DNA from: a virus
DNA: 41,916 nucleotides
Reading direction: 5' to 3' (one strand)
Virus genome (UHGV): UHGV-0326656
Shown here: positions 1 through 41,916 of the stretch, piece after piece
Numbering within the stretch: position 1 is the first letter of the stretch
Layout: each line of letters begins with the position of its first letter
Notes under the pieces: model-generated
Told to the model about the DNA's origin: nothing
Databases searched by the model: none
Seen by the model: only the letters and a program-made list of their open reading frames with translations
Translations under genes and position numbers: made by a program

Positions 1-150
1 CCTGGTAAAGCGGCGATTGGTCGTCTGAAAGGTGAGGAACTGGCGCAATATAATTTGTGGCTGGATTATCTGGACGCACTGGAACTGGTCGATACTTCCG
101 GTGCGCCAGATATTGAATGGCCTACTCCTCCGGCAGTTCAGGCCAGATGA
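1..150 (+). CDS. tail fibre assembly protein (Tfa), C-terminal part; 5' end lies outside the window
   Basis: Frame 1 is open to the TGA at 148-150; translation ...GRLKGEELAQYNLWLDYLDALELVDTSGAPDIEWPTPPAVQAR is nearly identical to the C-terminus of the 40731..41162 ORF. Confidence 0.8.
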   Translation, partial: PGKAAIGRLKGEELAQYNLWLDYLDALELVDTSGAPDIEWPTPPAVQAR

Positions 151-724
151 CATCCGGCGCGGTGCTGGTATCCGTTGCCGTCACCGCGTCAATGTAATCC
201 AGCACAGCGTTTAGTCGGGTGGTTTCTGTCTGCGTCAGCTTCCTCCCGGCCTGCAATTTCAGTTGAATCAGACTAATGGAAGCCATTGCAGTATCAATTA
301 GTGACTGTCGCTGTACTTCTGCCGCTTTTACTGCGGCACCATATTGTGCCTCAGTATCTGTCACCCATTTCTCACCATCCCATTTATCGTATGGCGTTAA
401 TGGGACGATAGTGGTTGTATTTTCAGGGTAATCACCCGGAGCTGTGATTTCTTTTGATTCTCCTGTTTCAGTGCTATAGACAAATTCACCACGATGGTCT
501 GGCACATATATCCACGAGTTAAAATCTTCAGAACGGCAAATTGCATAACCAGTTTTGTATGGGCCAGGGGCATCTAAACAGGAACATGCCGGAATGCCGA
601 CACCAATGGCAAGATATTCTGTTGATGTGGAAATATATTCCCGCGTTTCACCATCATAATTATAAACGGTTATGTCTCCCGCTTTTATGGCAATGAGTTC
701 GTTATTTAAGACAACTTTATTCAT
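122..724 (-). CDS. tail fibre assembly protein, inverted-orientation copy (Tfa')
   Basis: 200-aa ORF about 85% identical to the 41134..41736 ORF; convergent with the + strand Tfa, as in Mu G / e14 P invertible segments. Confidence 0.8.
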   Translation of the reverse strand: MNKVVLNNELIAIKAGDITVYNYDGETREYISTSTEYLAIGVGIPACSCLDAPGPYKTGYAICRSEDFNSWIYVPDHRGEFVYSTETGESKEITAPGDYPENTTTIVPLTPYDKWDGEKWVTDTEAQYGAAVKAAEVQRQSLIDTAMASISLIQLKLQAGRKLTQTETTRLNAVLDYIDAVTATDTSTAPDVIWPELPEE

Positions 725-1179
725 CAGGCAGCCCTCACGATATAATTAAAGGCAATGTTACGAGGTCGGTTTTCGTTTGCAGTTGGAACAACTCTGGAAG
801 CATCGAATGTTACTCGCTTTGCATAACCACCTTTAATTGAATCCGATGAAGCATCTCCGATGACGCTGGTTGTAAAAACGCCAGAATCAGAAGGATAGGT
901 ATTGAACCTGACATCCACTAATGCACCAATTATATTTCGAATGGCATCGCCCTGTGATGAAAGCAAGCTACGGTTAGTATCTATTCCTCTTCCGTCATCC
1001 CAGCCACGAATAAACTCACCACGTAAATCTGGCAATTTATTTGTCGGATAAACTTTTGCCAGTTCCGGATACTCTTCGGCAGAAAAAGGCGCACCATTGC
1101 ATTTCAGCCAGCCTGTTGGCGGAGTGGCTGAAGGCCACGGAACAGGCACACCAACGGGTAATGCCGAACCTTCTCCCAA
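724..1179 (-). CDS. alternative tail fibre C-terminal (receptor-binding) segment; no ATG of its own, opens inside the crossover site
   Basis: Frame opens with TTG inside the gix-like site; Gly/Pro-rich tip sequence ending NIAFNYIVRAA; stop overlaps the Tfa' start. Confidence 0.6.
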   Translation of the reverse strand: MGEGSALPVGVPVPWPSATPPTGWLKCNGAPFSAEEYPELAKVYPTNKLPDLRGEFIRGWDDGRGIDTNRSLLSSQGDAIRNIIGALVDVRFNTYPSDSGVFTTSVIGDASSDSIKGGYAKRVTFDASRVVPTANENRPRNIAFNYIVRAA

Positions 1180-1249: not shown

Positions 1250-1360
1250 ATGCTCATCGGTTATGTACGTGTGTCAACAAATGACCAGAACACCGCATTG
1301 CAACGAAACGCACTGGAGTGCGCAGGATGTGAACTGATATTCGAGGATAAGATCAGCGGC
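1250..1360 (+). pseudogene. serine DNA invertase (Pin/Gin/Hin family), 5' fragment of 37 codons
   Basis: MLIGYVRVSTNDQNTALQRNALECAGCELIFEDKISG matches the invertase N-terminus including the catalytic-Ser motif; similarity stops after codon 37. Confidence 0.7.
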
Positions 1361-1588
1361 AGATGGGGGGGCAGTCAGGGGGTTGCCCAGCTCAATTTGT
1401 TTGATGAAAACGCGCCACGCCCGGGTAGTGAGAAACTGATGGAAGTGTTGGATCACCTCAACGCCAAAGACGGCAGGGGAACCTTGTACTTTACCAGGCA
1501 GGGTATCCAGCCACAGTTGCAGATGAAACGCGAGATGCTTTCACCTAGATATACAACGAGATATGATGACATATTAAGAGTTAAATAG
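1361..1588 (+). pseudogene. UmuC-like Y-family polymerase subunit, 3' fragment fused in frame to the invertase remnant
   Basis: Tail ...QLNLFDENAPRPGSEKLMEVLDHLNAKDGRGTLYFTRQGIQPQLQMKREMLSPRYTTRYDDILRVK resembles the UmuC/MucB C-terminus as remembered; no upstream umuC body. Confidence 0.5.
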
Positions 1589-1607
1589 AACATCAGCGAG
1601 GTGATAA

Positions 1608-2603
1608 ATGAAAGGGATATATTATGAGAATACTCGAACCTCTATACCGGGGTGGATATCAAACCTTCATGAAACTCAAAGGTTTGGTTACGCTTATGAA
1701 ACAAGTACTCACTTTGTTCATTTATATGGTAAAGCTGAACCTTTTAATGTCATATCAGTTGGCCTTACCGCAATACAAGGTAAAAGTGGGACTCTAAATG
1801 ATTGGGTTATAAATACATTTGGAGCAACTAACATCCAAACATTACAAAATGATATCGGACATGTTGTTGAAGGTGTCTGGAGACCATCTTTATATTATAG
1901 CGATGACATTCAAGGTGCGTTGTTAGTTGATCCGTTCGAGAAAATGTCGTCAGGACAAGCTCTGCGCAATCTTATTAATAAACTCGATGAATTATTTTTG
2001 TACATTGAGCCAAGCATCACAGGTCTGAAAGCATATAGCCATAAATGCAGGGAGCTATTAATTTTGGCTTGTACAGAAGTTGAGAATCAGTGGGTGTCAC
2101 TGATAAAAAAAACAAACCTAAATAATGTAGGGGCTAGATATACAACTAGGGACTATGTACGGCTTGCAGATAAATGTTTTTTAAAAGAATACAAGGTGAA
2201 TTTTAAAAATTACTCAGGCTTAAGAGATTTCACACCATTTTTATCTTGGGTTCCGACTGCCTCTACTGGCTCTTTACCTTGGTACGATGCTTATAATGGA
2301 ACTAAGCATGATAGGGAAGCAGGTTTTAATCTCGCATCATTGGAGAATGTGATGGATGCCTTATCTGCTTGTATAGTATTGTATTGTGTTAAATATGGAC
2401 CTTATGATTTGGTGTCTGGTGGGGATCTGCTTTCAGGAACGTTTAACGAGCATTTTTCTCTTAGTTTCATAAATAGTGATAAAAGTAGCTATTACGTTCC
2501 CGAATTGAATTTTAACGCAAACGCAATAACAGACTTGTGTGTGATTGACTGTTATAGAGAAAAACTCAACAAAGCATGGGTTACAGAACCTCTTGTTTTA
2601 TAG
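1608..2603 (+). CDS. hypothetical protein, 331 aa, AT-rich orphan (candidate accessory/defence gene)
   Basis: Long ORF with GAGGTGA ribosome-binding site 7 nt upstream; markedly AT-rich versus flanks; no family recognised. Confidence 0.65.
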   Translation: MKGIYYENTRTSIPGWISNLHETQRFGYAYETSTHFVHLYGKAEPFNVISVGLTAIQGKSGTLNDWVINTFGATNIQTLQNDIGHVVEGVWRPSLYYSDDIQGALLVDPFEKMSSGQALRNLINKLDELFLYIEPSITGLKAYSHKCRELLILACTEVENQWVSLIKKTNLNNVGARYTTRDYVRLADKCFLKEYKVNFKNYSGLRDFTPFLSWVPTASTGSLPWYDAYNGTKHDREAGFNLASLENVMDALSACIVLYCVKYGPYDLVSGGDLLSGTFNEHFSLSFINSDKSSYYVPELNFNANAITDLCVIDCYREKLNKAWVTEPLVL

Positions 2604-2841
2604 GTAGTATTAATTCAGCACCTTGATTTTTTGTATTTCCCACGGCACGCGTCACGGCGTGCCAGATAAACGTGTCGGCAGACGCTGTACCCTTAGCAAC
2701 AATCTCCTCCACCACTCTACCTACGACATTCTGCCGTATCCACTCACGAGCTGCTTCCGGTGATAGCACCAGCGGCCGGCGATCATGAATATCTACCAGC
2801 CCTTTATCCGCAGCAGTAGTTACAATCAGGAACCCCTCAGC
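2581..2841 (-). pseudogene. yedK: SRAP (YedK-like abasic-site peptidase), C-terminal part, separated from N-terminal part by IS3
   Basis: Minus-strand frame reads AEGFLIVTTAADKGLVDIHDRRPLVLSPEAAREW...GNTKNQGAELI, matching the YedK C-terminus; in frame with 4100..4525 once IS3 and one AGC copy are removed. Confidence 0.8.
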
Positions 2842-2897
2842 TGATCTTACCCAGCAATAGTGGACACGCAGCTAAGTGAGTAAACTCTCAGTCAGAG

Positions 2898-3206
2898 GTG
2901 ACTCACATGACAAAAACAGTATCAACCAGTAAAAAACCCCGTAAACAGCATTCGTCTGAATTTCGCAGTGAAGCCCTGAAGCTTGCTGAACGCATCGGTG
3001 TTACTGCCGCAGCCCGTGAACTCAGCCTGTATGAATCACAGCTCTACAACTGGCGCAGTAAACAGCAAAATCAGCAGACGTCTTCTGAACGTGAACTGGA
3101 GATGTCTACCGAGATTGCACGTCTCAAACGCCAGCTGGCAGAACGGGATGAAGAGCTGGCTATCCTCCAAAAGGCCGCGACATACTTCGCGAAGCGCCTG
3201 AAATGA
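2898..3206 (+). CDS. insE: IS3 transposase OrfA (HTH subunit)
   Basis: [42 protein letters not shown]... recognised as IS3 OrfA. Confidence 0.9.
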
Positions 3207-4069
3207 AGTATGTCTTTATTGAAAAACATCAGGCTGAGTTCAGCATCAAAGCAATGTGCCGCGTGCTCCGGGTGGCCCGCAGCGGCTGGTATACGTGGTG
3301 TCAGCGGCGGACAAGGATAAGCACGCGTCAGCAGTTCCGCCAACACTGCGACAGCGTTGTCCTCGCGGCTTTTACCCGGTCAAAACAGCGTTACGGTGCC
3401 CCACGCCTGACGGATGAACTGCGTGCTCAGGGTTACCCCTTTAACGTAAAAACCGTGGCGGCAAGCCTGCGCCGTCAGGGACTGAGGGCAAAGGCCTCCC
3501 GGAAGTTCAGCCCGGTCAGCTACCGCGCACACGGCCTGCCTGTGTCAGAAAATCTGTTGGAGCAGGATTTTTACGCCAGTGGCCCGAACCAGAAGTGGGC
3601 AGGAGACATCACGTACTTACGTACAGATGAAGGCTGGCTGTATCTGGCAGTGGTCATTGACCTGTGGTCACGTGCCGTTATTGGCTGGTCAATGTCGCCA
3701 CGCATGACGGCGCAACTGGCCTGCGATGCCCTGCAGATGGCGCTGTGGCGGCGTAAGAGGCCCCGGAACGTTATCGTTCACACGGATCGTGGAGGCCAGT
3801 ACTGTTCAGCAGATTATCAGGCGCAACTGAAGCGGCATAATCTGCGTGGAAGTATGAGCGCAAAAGGTTGCTGCTACGATAATGCCTGCGTGGAAAGCTT
3901 CTTTCATTCGCTGAAAGTGGAATGTATCCATGGAGAACACTTTATCAGCCGGGAAATAATGCGGGCAACGGTGTTTAATTATATCGAATGTGATTACAAT
4001 CGGTGGCGGCGGCACAGTTGGTGTGGCGGCCTCAGTCCGGAACAATTTGAAAACCAGAACCTCGCTTAG
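3203..4069 (+). CDS. insF: IS3 transposase OrfB (DDE catalytic subunit)
   Basis: 288-aa ORF overlapping orfA, with integrase-core motifs (...[10 protein letters not shown]..., ...HTDRGGQY...). Confidence 0.9.
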
Positions 4070-4099
4070 GCCTGTGTCCATATTACGTGGGTAGGATCA

Positions 4100-4525
4100 A
4101 GCTTCATCGCCACGTTCAAATGGTGTGCTGCCAATAGCGGCCATGAATATAGGCTGGCCGTCAGCCCTGCGAATGAAGTAGGGCTGTTTTATAATGCCTT
4201 CGCGCTTCCATTCGAACCAACCATCAGCAAAGCAAATTGCACGTCCATGCAACCAGAGAGGTTTGAACATTCGGCTGGTGGCCGCAGTTTCTGAGCGTGC
4301 GTTAATCAGCGGAGGTTTATTCCACCATCCGGGAGCGAATCCCCAGATAACAGGATCGAGGTGCAACTGTTCGTCGCGTTCGCTCAAAAGCAGAACTTTG
4401 GTACCGGGTGCAACGTTGAATCGTCCAATTGGTTCTGGAACGTATGGGATGTCACGCTCAGCTTCTTCTGATAGGAGGGCAAGATAGTCTTCACGCGTCA
4501 TTGATTGGGCGAAACGTCCGCACAT
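4100..4525 (-). pseudogene. yedK: SRAP (YedK-like), N-terminal part, truncated by IS3
   Basis: MCGRFAQSMTREDYLALL...FMAAIGSTPFERGDEA has the Cys2 catalytic start of SRAP/YedK; the frame runs into the IS3 end. Confidence 0.85.
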
Positions 4526-4566
4526 AGAAACCTCCAGTCACCAGACTGAAAGTATAGGGTAGGGAT

Positions 4567-4590
4567 ACAAAAAAGCCCGCATAAGCGGGC
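4567..4590 (-). terminator. rho-independent terminator-like hairpin
   Basis: On the minus strand GCCCGC-TTAT-GCGGGC followed by TTTTTT, between the ssrA fragment and the SRAP start. Confidence 0.45.
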
Positions 4591-4749: not shown

Positions 4750-5040
4750 AGACACGTCGTATGCAAGAACTTGCTGCGGCTGGATGGTGGACTTTCGATA
4801 GTGCGAGTATTGAATGATGTCCAGCCGTTATTGATTTTACGTATTTTTTGCATGAAAAGATTAGCACCTCATCCCACCGCTCCTCCATGATTTTACACCA
4901 CTGTCTCTAGAGCTCTGTGTGCCAGAAGCGGAAGTTCATACCTCTAAGTGGATATTTTGTTAAAATATGCCATCAAAATCCTTGCTACCTCATGGTTGAC
5001 AGTGATAAAAGTTGCACAAATTACTGAGAGAGAAATTACA

Positions 5041-5478
5041 ATGAGTGGAGATACCTCTGAGTTTCCTAATAAACTTCCCAGAAAGCCAATTGGTTGGCGT
5101 GAAGAATATAGTGATTTTACAGGTAGTATTATATTCTATATGATATTCCCGTTGCTTCCATTACTTTTTGAGTCAATTAACACAGGAACTCACCCTTCAA
5201 TACAATCATTAACAATTACTGCATCAATATACTCTTTTTCCATCGGTGTATCTTCTCGAGATAAAGCTATTTTTTGCTTAGGGATTTTTTGTGGTTTCAT
5301 TCTCGCTTATCTTTACGGTAAAGTTAGTGAGCCAAAAGTTATTATATATACCTGGTACTATGTAGTTACGGTGATACTACTGGCTGTAATATTTATATTT
5401 CATCTTCTCGAACGATTTAATAAACACGTGGTAGAATGTGAACCTGTTTTCTCCTTTAAGTTTACGAGAGGTATGTAA
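5041..5478 (+). CDS. hypothetical multi-pass membrane protein (alternative start at 4948)
   Basis: AT-rich ORF with several hydrophobic segments (FYMIFPLLPLLF, IFCLGIFCGFILAYLY, VVTVILLAVIFIF); perfect -35 TTGACA about 40 nt upstream; stop overlaps the next start (TAATG). Confidence 0.6.
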   Translation: MSGDTSEFPNKLPRKPIGWREEYSDFTGSIIFYMIFPLLPLLFESINTGTHPSIQSLTITASIYSFSIGVSSRDKAIFCLGIFCGFILAYLYGKVSEPKVIIYTWYYVVTVILLAVIFIFHLLERFNKHVVECEPVFSFKFTRGM

Positions 5479-5945
5479 TGGAGGATATTATATTTATGTA
5501 TGCTGGGTTGATAGTGTCTTCTTTAGCGGCAATTGTAGGCTTAGCTACATCTATCATGCATACTCGTAAAAAAGTTAAAGCTAATGAAGAGCTTGCAACT
5601 GAAATGGCAAAGAGCTTTAGTGAGCTTGAATCTATCAATAAAAGCATAGGGGATTTGGAAGCGACAATTAAAAGGATAGATGAAGATGAATTAAAGTTAA
5701 GAATAGCAATTGAATCTTTAAAGGAAATGACTTCTGATGAAAAAAAAGAATCTAGGGATATGTTGAAAAACATCGTTAATGATGAGGTGTTCATTAAAGT
5801 TCTTCTCGAAAGCTATAAAAAACTGGATACCCAGTCAAAGAAGGAGATTTATTTGACTTTTTCCAAGTCGACAGATAGAGGCCTTTATCGATATATAAAA
5901 AGAATAGCTTCATCAGTACTCGATAACTTAATGGTTAAAATATAA
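5478..5945 (+). CDS. hypothetical protein with N-terminal transmembrane helix and charged coiled-coil-like C-terminal region
   Basis: AT-rich; MEDIIFMYAGLIVSSLAAIVGLATSIM then K/E-rich heptad-like sequence; translationally coupled to the upstream ORF. Confidence 0.65.
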   Translation: MEDIIFMYAGLIVSSLAAIVGLATSIMHTRKKVKANEELATEMAKSFSELESINKSIGDLEATIKRIDEDELKLRIAIESLKEMTSDEKKESRDMLKNIVNDEVFIKVLLESYKKLDTQSKKEIYLTFSKSTDRGLYRYIKRIASSVLDNLMVKI

Positions 5946-6560: not shown

Positions 6561-7724
6561 TTACACATCATTAGTACCTTCCTTATTTTTTGACTGGGAC
6601 AAATTTGGGACCGATGGGTTCAGGATCGAGTCTATTTGCCGTGCGTGCTCGGTAAGGTGATTAGGTGCAAGGTGAGCATATCGACGAACCATTTCGATAG
6701 ACTCCCAGCCTCCCATTTCCTGTAACACTGACAACGGGACTCCGGCTTGAACCAGCCAACTTGCCCAGGTGTGTCTCAGGTCGTGAAATCTGAAATCATC
6801 AATACCAGCCCGTCTCAGCGCCGCTTTCCAGGCTGTGTTTGCGTCATACCGCATCTTCCTTACTGTTGGCGCTTTCGTTCCGTCTGGTTTGGTACAGCTT
6901 TCCTTGTACACAAATACCCAACGGTGATGATTCCCGATTTGTTTTTTCAAAACGCGACATGCAGTATCATTCAGCGCAACGCCGATTGCGCGGTTTGATT
7001 TACTCTCTTCCGGGTTTATCCATGCCACTCGGCGCTGCATATCTATTTGTTGCCATTCAAGGTTGATGATGTTCGAGCGTCTTAAGCCTGTTGCCAGTGC
7101 AAATTCAACAACAGACTTTAATGGCTCCGGACATTCATCAATCAGCCTTTGTGCTTCATGGGGCTCCAGCCAGCGGATCCGTTTATTCTTTGGTTGAGGC
7201 ACTTTAATAATTGGTGCCTTATCCAGCATTTTCCATTCACGCTCTGCGGCTCTTAGTAGGGCCTTTATAAATGAAAGATGCGTAGCCTTCGTTGCAACGG
7301 ACGCTGGTTTTGGCGTGTATTCTGGAACAGGTTTCCCTTTTTTTCTGCATGCTTCTGCCCTGAGTTTCCAGTTTTCCTCATGACGCCGGTTCGTCATTTT
7401 CTGCATTGCTGAATAAATTTTTGATTCAGTAATGTCTCTTAGTTGCATTCCTGCGAAATGTTGAAGCCAGAATCCGATCCGGCTTTTGTCATCGTCCAGT
7501 GATTTTTTATGTGCTTTCTCTTCAAGCCACCTGACACATGCTTCCTCGAACGTTATATCAGGTATTTCACCAAGTTTACTGACCCGCCATGCTTCAGCCT
7601 TTAGCTTGTCATGGAGTTCTGTCGCCTGCCTTTTGTCCTTTGTTCCAAGAGACTGTTTAAATCTTTTACCGTTCGGCAATGTGAAACTGGCGTACCATAT
7701 TTCACCTCTGCGGAAGAGTGACAT
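6561..7724 (-). CDS. int: tyrosine-type phage integrase
   Basis: 387 aa with C-terminal catalytic region ...[39 protein letters not shown]; adjacent to tRNA fragment. Confidence 0.95.
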
Positions 7725-12497: not shown

Positions 12498-13190
12498 TTA
12501 ATTATGTCTCTTAAGGGTTTGCGACTGACTGATTAAGACCTTTCCAAAGACCATGAATCGGTGTTCGTTTTCGCTAGTAATTCCCCATTCACGGTAAATC
12601 TGGTTATCAGAAATCACCAGCAGTTTGTCAGGAATCATTTGAAGTCTTTTAACGTATATTTTGTCATCAAAACCAAAGACATATATACCATCACCATCAA
12701 ACTGATTGATGCTGACATCAACGAAGATGAGATCTCCTGGCTCAATGGTTGGACACATACTGTCCCCACGAACGTTGATAACTTTGATGTGATTGGCTGG
12801 TCGTCCGCCGAACATTGATACAGCATTATCAGTTCTGTATTCGATGGCATGAATCACATCAATGACATCACCGCCCTGGATAAGGCCATTTCCCGCACTG
12901 GCACTGATATCCAGCATTTCAATACGGAACACATCCTTCACCTGCGCAACATCCTCATTGTTACTGTTTTTATATACAGTATTACTTTTGTGGGCAGAGG
13001 TAAAGAGATCAGCAATATCAACACCTAAGCTCTTGGCAATATTACTCAGTGTTTGTTCGGTAAATTGTTTTTGCTTACCCGTTTCTAAGCGCGAGATGTT
13101 CGCCGCATCTACTCCTATCGCTTCAGCGAGATCGGCGATTTTCATGTTCTTCGCTTGGCGAAGTTGTCTGACTCGGTTTCCTATGTTCAT
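12498..13190 (-). CDS. cI: CI-type repressor (N-terminal HTH, C-terminal S24 LexA-like peptidase domain)
   Basis: N-terminal HTH (VRQLRQAKNMKIADLAEAIGVDAANISRLETGK) and C-terminal ...INVRGDSMCPTIEPGDLIFVD...KIYVKRL with Ser/Lys dyad; divergent from cro. Confidence 0.9.
   Translation of the reverse strand: MNIGNRVRQLRQAKNMKIADLAEAIGVDAANISRLETGKQKQFTEQTLSNIAKSLGVDIADLFTSAHKSNTVYKNSNNEDVAQVKDVFRIEMLDISASAGNGLIQGGDVIDVIHAIEYRTDNAVSMFGGRPANHIKVINVRGDSMCPTIEPGDLIFVDVSINQFDGDGIYVFGFDDKIYVKRLQMIPDKLLVISDNQIYREWGITSENEHRFMVFGKVLISQSQTLKRHN
12962..12981. promoter_or_regulatory. near-consensus LexA (SOS) box inside the cI coding sequence
   Basis: TACTGTTTTTATATACAGTA = CTGT-N8-ACAG with AT-rich spacer, about 18 of 20 to the consensus TACTGTATATATATACAGTA; falls in the cI interdomain linker. 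Confidence 0.5.
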
Positions 13191-40730: not shown

Positions 40731-41162
40731 ATGGAAAAGACATATTATTTTAATCCCTCTGATTCGGGATTTTATATTTCACCAGATAGCCAAACCATTC
40801 CTGAGAACGCTACGAAAATAAACTTTACTATTTATTCTGAGTTCGCAGGAGTTGCATGGCCTGATGGTAAAATACTTGGTTCAGATAAAAATGGTTTTCC
40901 AGCATGGCAGGATGCGCCACCACTTACCAGCGAAGAATTAATCTCAATCGCTGAATCAAATAAACAGCGATTAGTTAATCAGGCCAACGAATACATGAAC
41001 AGTAAACAATGGCCTGGTAAAGCGGCGATTGGTCGTCTGAAAGGTGAGGAACTGGCGCAATATAATTTGTGGCTGGATTATCTGGACGCACTGGAACTGG
41101 TCGATACTTCCAGTGCGCCAGATATTGAATGGCCTACGCCTCCGGCAGTTCAGGCCAGATGA
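40731..41162 (+). CDS. tail fibre assembly protein (Tfa)
   Basis: 143 aa immediately after the fibre gene; C-terminal 50 aa shared with the inverted copy. Confidence 0.85.
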   Translation: MEKTYYFNPSDSGFYISPDSQTIPENATKINFTIYSEFAGVAWPDGKILGSDKNGFPAWQDAPPLTSEELISIAESNKQRLVNQANEYMNSKQWPGKAAIGRLKGEELAQYNLWLDYLDALELVDTSSAPDIEWPTPPAVQAR

Positions 41163-41736
41163 CATCCGGCGCGGTGCTGGTATCTGTTGCCGTCACCGCG
41201 TCAATGTAATCCAGCACAGCGTTAAGTCTGGTTGTTTCTGCCTGCGTCGGTTTACGTCCGGCCTGCAATTTCAGTTGAATCAGACTGATGGAAGCCATTG
41301 CTGCATCAATCAGTGACTGGCGCTGTGCTTCTGCCGCTTCTACTGCGGCACCGTATTGTGCCTCAGTATCTGTCACCCATTTTTCACCATCCCATTTATC
41401 GTATGGCGTTAACGGGGCGATAGTGGTTGTATTTTCGGGATAGTCGCCTAGTGCTGTGATTTCTTTGGCATCTCCCGTTTCGGTGTTATAGACTATTTCA
41501 CCTCGATGGTCTGACACATATTCCCATGATTTTAAATCCACAGAACGGAAAATTGTATAACCAGCCTTATATGTACCAGGAGCGTCTAAACAGGAATATG
41601 CAGGGATACCGACACCAATGGCAAGATATTCATTTGAAGTGGAAATATATTCCCGTGTTTCGCCATCATAGTTATAGACGGTAATATTTCCCGCCTTTGT
41701 AGCAATAAACTCGCTATTTAATACAGCGTTATCCAT
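41134..41736 (-). CDS. tail fibre assembly protein, inverted-orientation copy (Tfa')
   Basis: 200 aa, convergent with Tfa; about 85% identical to the 122..724 ORF. Confidence 0.85.
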   Translation of the reverse strand: MDNAVLNSEFIATKAGNITVYNYDGETREYISTSNEYLAIGVGIPAYSCLDAPGTYKAGYTIFRSVDLKSWEYVSDHRGEIVYNTETGDAKEITALGDYPENTTTIAPLTPYDKWDGEKWVTDTEAQYGAAVEAAEAQRQSLIDAAMASISLIQLKLQAGRKPTQAETTRLNAVLDYIDAVTATDTSTAPDVIWPELPEA

Positions 41737-41737
41737 T

Positions 41738-41916
41738 ATGCAGCCCTCACGATATAGTTAAATGCAATATTCCGTGGGCGAGTATCGGCAGGAACGACAT
41801 ACATTTCACCAATTGCCCGCTCATTAGAGTTGTTCAGCAATAGGCTTGAGCCATTACTGTCATGACCCGTAATTAAGATATCATTGGACAAAATAAGTGA
41901 GCCCGTACCTGCAGGA
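41738..41916 (-). CDS. alternative tail fibre C-terminal segment, partial (runs off the window)
   Basis: Minus-strand frame ...NDILITGHDSNGSSLLLNNSNERAIGEMYVVPADTRPRNIAFNYIVRAA with stop overlapping the Tfa' start; same terminal motif as the 724..1179 ORF. Confidence 0.7.

What the first reader, a model, noticed from the sequence alone, without database searches (positions are those of the whole stretch)
1608..2603. AT-rich 331-aa orphan gene downstream of the invertase-umuC' scar
A long, clean ORF with a strong ribosome-binding site (GAGGTGA) and GC content far below the flanks, 20 nt after the chimeric pseudogene and just before the IS3-disrupted SRAP gene. No transmembrane segment or catalytic motif that I can assign. 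Its position (between tail fibre/invertase and the att core) and composition fit a horizontally acquired single-gene accessory function.
Basis: partly seen in the sequence, partly recalled or inferred. Interest (0 to 1): 0.65.

Follow-up and report, generated by a model that had tools for sequence, protein, structure and literature searches.

The report
Uncharacterised HEPN-fold prophage cargo gene
The AT-rich 331-codon gene is real and intact, but it is not an orphan: it belongs to a large, unnamed family spread by gene transfer across many bacterial phyla, it has a HEPN-like helical core, and it sits where mobile elements keep anti-phage genes, so it is most likely a new single-gene phage-defence effector, still untested.

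Summary
The ORF at 1608-2603 (+), with its GAGGTGA ribosome-binding site, its low GC (36.5% against 50% for the window) and its flanks, is confirmed. "Orphan" is wrong. There are 1,594 relatives at the 50%-identity cluster level. A full-length subfamily of 331-333 aa is 40-68% identical across at least 8 phyla. Every member is named "hypothetical". There is no Pfam, NCBIfam or PADLOC match; the only family match is PHROG 19461, of unknown function.

The gene has no conserved partner. Full-length homologues lie in the P2 gpA-gpQ defence hotspot, next to Gabija or AIPR, 9 nt after a type IIG-like enzyme, in ICE cargo, and on an IncF plasmid. Distant homologues lie inside type I R-M operons between hsdS and hsdR, the slot PrrC occupies.

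Best reading (confidence about 0.5): a stand-alone, HEPN-derived abortive-infection effector with a non-canonical active site. It is a new variant of a known kind and has not been tested.

The parts
1250..1588 (+). Chimeric pseudogene: the N-terminus of a Pin-type serine invertase (about 37 aa) fused to the C-terminal DUF4113 part of UmuC.
   Evidence: Pfam finds Resolvase at residues 3-39 and DUF4113 at residues 61-111. BLASTP matches UmuC of L007 at residues 351-416 and serine recombinases over residues 1-37. RefSeq annotates both pieces as partial pseudogenes in TB06052.
1398..1588 (+). The umuC 3' remnant. It is the left edge of a transferred module [umuC' - ORF - SRAP] that is also present in Enterobacter hormaechei.
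   Evidence: Window 1398-2842 plus 4101-4579 is collinear with L011 7779-9712 at 69-79% nucleotide identity (alignment A6).
1598..1604 (+). Shine-Dalgarno sequence GAGGTGA.
   Evidence: Read directly from the sequence. It is conserved as GAGGTGAT in the Enterobacter and metagenome copies.
1608..2603 (+). Intact 331-aa gene, the subject of the finding.
   Evidence: It is 100% identical in E. coli TB06052, and exactly this protein is seen on 62 contigs. PHROG 19461 matches full length at E 5e-139.
1608..1892 (+). N-terminal α/β domain (residues 1-95), specific to the family. Invariant residues: Y6 N8 T9 T11 H21 G27 Y30 E31 H35 H38 G41 W66 F71 G72 A73 I76 W91 R92 P93.
1899..2453 (+). Helical core with a HEPN-like fold (residues about 98-282), including a variable insert at residues 167-223.
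2037..2093 (+). Conserved helix S-H-K-x-R-E-L-L-I-L-A-C-T-E-V-E-N-x-W (residues 144-162). It carries R148, E157 and E159, candidate active-site residues.
   Evidence: E159 is invariant, and R148 and E157 are conserved in at least 90% of 93 superfamily sequences. This stretch has the lowest entropy in the protein.
2280..2315 (+). Conserved motif W-Y-D-A-Y-N-G-T-K-H-D-R (residues 225-236), the candidate catalytic motif. It has the N-x3-H spacing of the R-N-x3-H form of the HEPN motif, with Tyr in place of Arg.
   Evidence: W225, Y229, K233 and H234 are invariant, and Y226, N230 and R236 are conserved in at least 90% of the superfamily. No R-x(4-6)-H occurs anywhere in the protein.
2454..2600 (+). 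C-terminal β-rich tail (residues 283-331), the most variable part of the protein.
   Evidence: Only 1 of 49 positions is invariant, and mean entropy is the highest of any region. Secondary structure.
2581..2841 (-). 3' part of the SRAP (YedK-like) gene. It converges on the ORF and overlaps it by 23 nt.
   Evidence: The same convergent overlap occurs in Enterobacter L011, with 84% amino-acid identity.
2842..4099 (+). IS3 (1258 bp) inserted in the SRAP gene, with an AGC target-site duplication.
   Evidence: Comparison with TB06052. The insE/insF-type ORFs are at 2898-3206 and 3203-4069.
4100..4525 (-). 5' part of the SRAP gene.
   Evidence: Pfam SRAP, E 9e-33, profile positions 1-136 of 214.

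Best explanation
The gene encodes a self-contained, single-protein anti-phage (abortive-infection type) effector. It is carried as cargo at the end of a tailed prophage.

Shown here:
- The ORF is intact, and the protein is under strong constraint. Its length is 331-333 aa and it is 40-68% identical across at least 8 phyla.
- It moves by horizontal transfer and has no conserved partner gene.
- Its helical core has the fold of HEPN domains.
- Two helices carry invariant polar residues: R148/E157/E159 and Y229-N230-x2-K233-H234-x-R236.
- Full-length relatives sit in recognised defence locations.
- Distant relatives are translationally coupled inside type I R-M operons.

Inferred, not shown:
- The core helices form a non-canonical HEPN-type active site, in which Tyr replaces the Arg of R-N-x3-H and Lys/Arg flank the His.
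- The protein is held inactive in uninfected cells.
- The family-specific N-terminal domain, the variable insert and the variable C-terminal tail act as the regulatory or sensing part.
- On infection the enzyme cleaves RNA (tRNA, rRNA or mRNA), stopping translation and phage growth, as HepS, PrrC, RloC, AbiV and ApeA do.
For: Fold:
- The AF2 model has pLDDT 92.9 and pTM 0.91.

Conserved site:
- In 93 superfamily sequences E159, W214, W225, Y229, K233 and H234 are invariant.
- R148, E157, N230 and R236 are conserved in at least 90% of them.

No partner gene.

Context of full-length homologues:
- P2-like prophages, between gpA and gpQ, in Salmonella (SEN8, L095) and in 11 E. coli genomes. This locus is a validated defence hotspot (PMC9122126).
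- Next to Gabija on an E. coli island and a Klebsiella IncF plasmid, and in Pseudomonas.
- Next to AIPR and a methylase.
- 9 nt downstream of a ResIII+Eco57I enzyme in Treponema.
- At prophage tail ends and in ICE cargo.
- Among the two nearest neighbours on each side in 47 loci, PADLOC finds type IIG R-M, Lit, SoFic, RT-Toprim, GajA/B, AriA, DRT and mad3.

Context of the distant subfamily:
- 8 of 23 loci read hsdM-hsdS-[homologue]-hsdR-YgjP, with start/stop overlaps.
- Other loci have Eco57I-like enzymes, AIPR, AAA_21, PLD or HindVP nearby.

Precedent:
- Many HEPN families are embedded in R-M operons, and some keep the His but lack the Arg (PMC3710099).
- HepS is a solo HEPN Abi protein encoded by a prophage (PMC13043305).
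Against: - The canonical Rx4-6H motif is absent. No R-x(4-6)-H occurs anywhere in the protein, so RNase chemistry is not established.
- No sequence-level link to any HEPN family was found. Pfam gives nothing, and the superfamily profile against PDB sequences finds nothing at E up to 10.
- Foldseek E-values are not significant; the best is 0.077.
- No model coordinates were available, so it could not be checked whether the invariant residues sit at the position of the HEPN active site.
- No member matches any PADLOC model, including candidate systems.
- The defence association was not tested against a background. Many neighbours are housekeeping genes.
- The very high conservation of the N-domain is unusual for a phage-sensing domain.
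- No experimental data were found.
Confidence: 0.5

Rival explanations
1. An accessory factor of DNA-damage tolerance or the SOS response, not an immune protein. In this reading the gene belongs functionally with umuDC, SRAP (YedK-like abasic-site crosslinking protein) and DinI, and acts on damaged nucleic acid.
For: - The module [umuC 3' end - ORF - SRAP] is conserved between E. coli and Enterobacter. The ORF starts 19 nt after the umuC stop codon, and DinI lies beside it in Enterobacter.
- Intact umuDC lies upstream of the homologue on the Klebsiella plasmid and the E. coli island.
- A DinI-like gene sits in the P2 hotspot copies.
Against: - These linkages are confined to enterobacterial relatives. 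Only 1 of 94 immediate neighbours in 47 loci is SRAP.
- umuDC, SRAP and DinI are themselves common cargo of mobile elements (background knowledge).
- SRAP is 84% identical between the two species and the ORF 67%, so the two do not evolve in step.
- No LexA box lies near the ORF.
- Distant relatives sit inside R-M operons.
Confidence: 0.1
2. A toxin, or addiction or stabilisation module, of mobile elements (post-segregational killing or exclusion of competing elements). Its antitoxin would be a small RNA or peptide that was not detected.
Against: No conserved adjacent ORF is found in any of about 78 loci. In the window the gene has 19 nt upstream and overlaps SRAP downstream, which leaves no room for a protein antitoxin. 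RNA antitoxins were not searched for.
Confidence: 0.1
3. A catalytically inert HEPN-like ligand-binding or regulatory protein (as with MtlR or the substrate-binding domains of nucleotidyltransferases), or a phage-beneficial function such as counter-defence.
Against: About ten invariant polar or aromatic residues on two helices, conserved from Patescibacteria to E. coli, point to chemistry rather than mere binding. Same-strand, overlapping placement between hsdS and hsdR in cellular chromosomes fits a host defence gene rather than an anti-defence gene.
Confidence: 0.12

Closest known systems
HepS (Gifsy-1 'HEPN solo' abortive-infection protein; PMC13043305)
   Same: A single prophage-encoded gene with no partner, a HEPN-fold core, and an accessory location in a temperate phage. 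It is presumed to be inactive until triggered.
   Different: HepS is under 250 aa, has a canonical R100-x4-H105 motif, and has a proven tRNA anticodon nuclease activity triggered by the siphovirus tail-tip protein J. The present protein is 331 aa, has an extra N-terminal domain of unknown fold, lacks Rx4-6H, and is untested. Homology between the two was not tested.
PrrC / RloC anticodon nucleases of type I R-M loci
   Same: Distant homologues occupy the same operon slot, between hsdS and hsdR. PrrC's C-terminal nuclease is classed as HEPN (PMC3710099).
   Different: PrrC and RloC carry an N-terminal ABC ATPase, and nothing of the kind is found here (no Pfam ATPase match). The window gene itself is not R-M linked.
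HEPN/MNT (HepT-MntA) toxins, e.g. SO_3166 (5YEP), 8XDJ, 7AE2
   Different: Those are proteins of about 130 aa with an R-x4-H-x-Y motif and an adjacent MNT antitoxin. Here there is no MNT neighbour, no such motif, and two extra regions.
HEPN families that keep the His but lack the Arg (c2405, some AbiV members; PMC3710099)
   Same: They are a precedent for non-canonical HEPN active sites in Abi or R-M-linked proteins.
   Different: No sequence similarity to these Pfam families was detected.
Unannotated cargo of the P2 gpA-gpQ hotspot (Rousset 2022, PMC9122126; PMC13586616)
   Same: Homologues in Salmonella and E. coli lie exactly in this hotspot. Table S1 of Rousset 2022 lists the C21-type locus with a 'hypothetical' in this position, as well as 'HNH_2 + hypothetical' cassettes.
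   Different: No paper that was searched tested or named it. The window copy is in a different prophage type (contractile tail with a Pin-invertase tail-fibre module).

Membership tests
HEPN superfamily | Helical-bundle fold that superposes on solved HEPN domains. | tested here: met
HEPN superfamily | Conserved Rx4-6H motif. | tested here: not met
   No R-x(4-6)-H occurs anywhere in the protein. The invariant H234 is preceded by Y229-N230, not by Arg.
HEPN superfamily | Sequence or profile match to a described HEPN family. | tested here: not met
   Pfam, NCBIfam and PADLOC give no match. The superfamily profile against PDB sequences gives 0 hits at E up to 10.
HEPN superfamily | Metal-independent endoribonuclease activity from a dimeric composite site. 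| not testable with these tools
   This needs biochemistry, or at least multimer modelling with coordinates.
Solo-HEPN Abi proteins (HepS-like) | Single gene with no conserved partner, on a prophage. | tested here: met
   No recurrent neighbour in 47 full-length loci. Prophage locations are shown.
Solo-HEPN Abi proteins (HepS-like) | Homology to HepS (under 250 aa, with R100-x4-H105). | not tested
The length and motif differ from the published description.
PrrC/RloC-type R-M-linked anticodon nucleases | Gene embedded in a type I R-M operon. | tested here: inconclusive
   Met for 8 of 23 distant-subfamily loci. Not met for the window gene. One full-length homologue follows a type IIG-like enzyme.
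PrrC/RloC-type R-M-linked anticodon nucleases | N-terminal ABC ATPase regulatory domain. | tested here: not met
   Neither Pfam nor the model shows an ATPase domain.
Type II toxin-antitoxin module | Conserved adjacent antitoxin gene. | tested here: not met
   Neighbour clustering finds none. In the window the gene has 19 nt upstream and overlaps SRAP downstream.
Known or candidate defence systems in PADLOC-DB 2.0.0 | HMM match to a listed protein. | tested here: not met
   The window protein and 10 diverse relatives give 0 families at E up to 1.
PHROG 19461 | Full-length profile match. | tested here: met
   E 4.8e-139, residues 1-331 against profile positions 1-331. The family is annotated 'unknown function'.

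The most novel reading that the evidence does not exclude
The family is a previously unrecognised class of single-protein immune effector. It would be HEPN-derived but have a re-invented active site (E-x-E on one helix, Y-N-x2-K-H-x-R on another) and an N-terminal domain of new fold whose invariant His/Glu cluster (H21, E31, H35, H38) binds a conserved cellular or viral ligand or a metal. Because the whole protein is nearly frozen in sequence across phyla, it would sense a universal feature of infection rather than a variable phage protein. Its chemistry might not be RNA cleavage at all.
Probability: 0.25. Interest if true: 0.75.

Novelty: new variant of a known kind. Interest (0 to 1): 0.58.

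Why it matters
If it is confirmed, a family of more than 1,000 sequence clusters would gain a function and would add a compact single-gene system to the defence catalogue. The family is found from E. coli, Salmonella, Vibrio, Acinetobacter and Klebsiella plasmids to Bacteroidota, Cyanobacteria, Spirochaetes and Patescibacteria. It is currently invisible to Pfam, NCBIfam and PADLOC.

It would also show that a HEPN scaffold can work without the Rx4-6H signature. Motif-based surveys of HEPN immunity would therefore undercount. The family would also be an unusually conserved effector with which to ask what such proteins sense.

Tried and rejected
- Sequence libraries: Pfam, NCBIfam and PADLOC gave nothing for the window protein or for 20 distant relatives. 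phmmer and a superfamily profile against PDB sequences found nothing meaningful.
- Foldseek against PDB found no hit with E below 1e-3. The afdb50 library was unavailable.
- A profile of the N-domain was searched to look for other domain architectures. It found only fragments of the same family.
- A profile search with the 93-sequence superfamily alignment returned no hit carrying a Pfam domain.
- No conserved partner or antitoxin was found.
- LexA-box scan: none lies near the ORF or the SRAP promoter.
- Promoter and terminator scan: hits were no more frequent than in shuffled sequence. One weak -35/-10 pair lies at 1540-1567.
- tRNA or att site: there is no tRNA gene in the window.
- Literature: accession numbers and locus tags gave no hits, and topic searches found no description of this family.
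- Pseudogene reading: rejected, because the frame is intact, the gene is identical in TB06052, and the family is strongly conserved.

Full report
**Observation**

The window has an ATG-to-TAG ORF at 1608-2603 on the + strand, coding for 331 aa. GAGGTGA lies at 1598-1604, three bases before the ATG. The ORF has 36.5% GC and 29% GC at third codon positions. The window as a whole has 50%, and the SRAP gene next door has 52%.

The ORF begins 19 nt after the stop of a 112-codon chimera (1250-1588). Residues 3-39 of the chimera match the N-terminus of a serine invertase, and residues 61-111 match DUF4113, the C-terminus of UmuC.

Upstream, on the minus strand, are a tail-fibre assembly gene (Caudo_TAP) and a tail-collar fragment.

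Downstream, an SRAP gene runs on the opposite strand, and its 3' end overlaps the ORF's 3' end by 23 nt. SRAP is split by a 1258-bp IS3 (2842-4099) with an AGC target duplication.

E. coli TB06052 has the same region at 99-100% identity, without the IS3. There the ORF follows the tail sheath, tube, tape-measure, baseplate and tail-fibre module of a prophage.

So the description is correct, apart from two points. The gap is 19 nt, not 20. And there is no tRNA-type att site: no tRNA gene exists in the window. The locus is followed by an AT-rich gene pair and then the integrase of a second element at 6564-7724.

**Not an orphan**

The word-indexed protein search found 543 clusters at 90% identity. 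The exhaustive HMMER search found 1,594 representatives at 50% identity with E below 1e-3, of which 1,102 have E below 1e-10.

A full-length subfamily keeps a length of 331-333 aa and is 40-68% identical to the window protein. It occurs in:
- Gamma-, Beta- and Alphaproteobacteria
- Campylobacterota
- Bacteroidota
- Planctomycetota
- Cyanobacteria
- Spirochaetota
- Bacillota
- Verrucomicrobiota

More distant relatives share only residues about 82-298. They are found in Fusobacteria, Patescibacteria, Elusimicrobia, Acidobacteria and gut Alphaproteobacteria.

Essentially every source calls these proteins "hypothetical". Pfam, NCBIfam and PADLOC give nothing for the window protein or for 20 distant relatives. 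The only family match is PHROG 19461, full length, of unknown function.

The gene is rare in E. coli. One of 5,426 complete genomes has this allele, and 14 have two other alleles.

One cluster at 90% identity or more spans E. coli, Salmonella, Citrobacter, Vibrio cholerae, V. vulnificus and V. mimicus, which means recent transfer between families.

**Structure**

AlphaFold2, run with a 41-sequence alignment, gives pLDDT 92.9 and pTM 0.91. The model has:
- a β-rich N-terminal domain (residues 1-95)
- a helical core (residues about 98-282) with an insert at 167-223
- C-terminal strands (residues 283-331)

Foldseek also ranks HEPN toxins first, but its best E-value is 0.077. The similarity is therefore at the level of fold.

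**Conserved residues**

In 41 full-length sequences, 41 positions are invariant.

In a 93-sequence superfamily alignment, the invariant positions are E159, W214, W225, Y229, K233 and H234. R148, E157, N230, R236 and ten more positions are conserved in at least 90% of sequences.

These residues lie on two helices:
- S-H-K-x-R-E-L-L-I-L-A-C-T-E-V-E-N-x-W (residues 144-162)
- W-Y-x-A-Y-N-x-T-K-H-x-R (residues 225-236)

These two helices are the lowest-entropy stretches of the protein. The insert and the C-terminal tail are the most variable.

The canonical HEPN signature Rx4-6H is absent. No such spacing exists anywhere in the protein. The N230-x3-H234 spacing does recall the common R-N-x3-H form, with Tyr in place of Arg and with Lys and Arg flanking the His.

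Anantharaman et al. describe HEPN families that keep the His but lack the Arg, and they argue that alternative active sites occur (PMC3710099).

No model coordinates were available. I could not check whether these residues occupy the position of the HEPN active site.

**Genomic context of full-length homologues**

Clustering of the neighbours in about 78 loci shows no recurrent partner. A Pfam scan of the 94 immediate neighbours is heterogeneous.

The annotated contexts are:
- Salmonella phage SEN8 and a Salmonella prophage: between cos/gpA and the portal gene gpQ.
- Eleven complete E. coli genomes: the same place, together with an HNH gene, a CDI-type RNase/immunity pair, and DinI.
- An E. 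coli island and a Klebsiella IncF conjugative plasmid: umuDC, an IS fragment, the homologue, GajB and GajA, with a NACHT protein nearby.
- Pseudomonas GM102: between an integrase and Gabija.
- Mucilaginibacter: beside an N6 methylase and AIPR.
- Treponema: 9 nt downstream of a 1302-aa ResIII+Eco57I enzyme.
- Pectobacterium: ICE cargo next to the type IV secretion genes.
- Acinetobacter: at a prophage tail end.
- Another E. coli island: next to a DUF4145 protein.

The gpA-gpQ interval is the P2 defence hotspot (PMC9122126). That paper's Table S1 lists the C21-type locus with an unannotated "hypothetical" in this position.

PADLOC scans of the two nearest neighbours on each side in 47 loci find type IIG R-M, Lit, SoFic, RT-Toprim, PDC-S04, GajA/B, AriA, mad3 and DRT proteins. 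This looks like more than a background rate, but I could not test it against a control.

IMG/VR holds 20 viral contigs with a relative, one of them identical to the window protein.

**Genomic context of distant homologues**

In 8 of 23 loci the gene lies inside a type I R-M operon, in the order hsdM, hsdS, homologue, hsdR, YgjP. Starts and stops overlap or are within 13 nt of each other. This is the slot PrrC occupies in the prr locus (PMC3710099).

Other loci in this group carry Eco57I-type methylase-nucleases, PLD-SNF2 helicases, AIPR, AbiEii-like AAA_21 or HindVP.

**The local module**

Window 1398-2842 plus 4101-4579 is collinear with Enterobacter hormaechei L011 7779-9712. The same truncated umuC 3' end, the same Shine-Dalgarno sequence, the ORF, and the convergent overlapping SRAP gene are all present there, with DinI beside them.

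The unit that was transferred is therefore [umuC' - ORF - SRAP], and the fusion to the invertase stub is specific to the E. coli prophage.

Together with the intact umuDC upstream of the plasmid copy, this raises an SOS-linked rival explanation. Against it:
- The linkage is confined to enterobacterial relatives.
- SRAP is 84% identical between the two species while the ORF is 67%.
- No LexA box is nearby.

**Interpretation**

The most likely reading is a stand-alone abortive-infection type effector built on a HEPN scaffold with a non-canonical active site. The family-specific N-domain and the variable insert and tail would serve regulation or sensing.

The closest mechanistic analogue is HepS, a solo HEPN protein of prophage Gifsy-1 that cleaves tRNA anticodon loops when it meets a phage tail-tip protein (PMC13043305).

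What is shown: an intact gene, strong constraint, horizontal mobility, the absence of a partner, the fold, the conserved site, and the contexts.

What is inferred: RNA cleavage, auto-inhibition, a trigger, and the phenotype.

I put this reading at about 0.5. The rivals are:
- an SOS or DNA-damage accessory factor (0.10)
- an addiction toxin with an undetected antitoxin (0.10)
- a non-catalytic, regulatory or counter-defence protein (0.12)

**Novelty and value**

The family is not in Pfam, NCBIfam or PADLOC (including PADLOC's candidate systems), and I found no paper that names or tests it. It is best filed as a new variant of a known kind, the HEPN-type single-gene defence. It is not a member of any described HEPN family, because the defining motif and any profile match were both tested and not met.

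It is a good candidate for cloning and phage challenge. Without an experiment it remains a prediction.

Noticed in passing
window 4948-5942: A second AT-rich cassette (GC 0.32-0.35): a 176-aa hydrophobic protein followed, with a 2-nt gap, by a 155-aa protein that looks like a coiled coil. Neither has a credible Pfam match. The pair is also present in TB06052 (L001 14488-15485). It may be further prophage-end cargo.
   Followed up: partly
window 2842-4099: An IS3 of 1258 bp, with a 3-bp AGC target duplication, splits the SRAP (YedK-like) gene. SRAP is intact in E. coli TB06052, so the insertion is recent.
   Followed up: yes
window 6561-7724 and rightwards: A tyrosine integrase lies on the minus strand. 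The window and TB06052 diverge at 6563, so a second integrated element starts here.
   Followed up: partly
window 1-756 and 41013-41768: A direct repeat at 88.8% identity covers the tail-fibre assembly region. Two related tail-fibre modules therefore lie about 41 kb apart, which suggests two related prophages in tandem.
   Followed up: partly
window 12964-12979: A perfect LexA-box-like palindrome, CTGTTTTTATATACAG, lies inside the second element. None is near the ORF studied here.
   Followed up: no
L002 1183-2142; L095 9053-10012; L099 8053-8565: In P2-like prophages the homologue is repeatedly paired, convergently, with an HNH_2 endonuclease gene. Table S1 of Rousset 2022 lists 'HNH_2 + hypothetical' cassettes in this hotspot. 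Whether the two genes work together is unknown. The window copy has no HNH neighbour.
   Followed up: partly
L007 4458-13583; L100 3669-10278: The same module (umuD, umuC, IS fragment, homologue, GajB, GajA) is present on an E. coli chromosomal island and on a Klebsiella pneumoniae IncFIB/IncFII conjugative plasmid.
   Followed up: partly
window 1250-1370: Only about 37 codons of the Pin-type invertase remain, so the adjacent invertible tail-fibre segment is presumably locked in one orientation.
   Followed up: no
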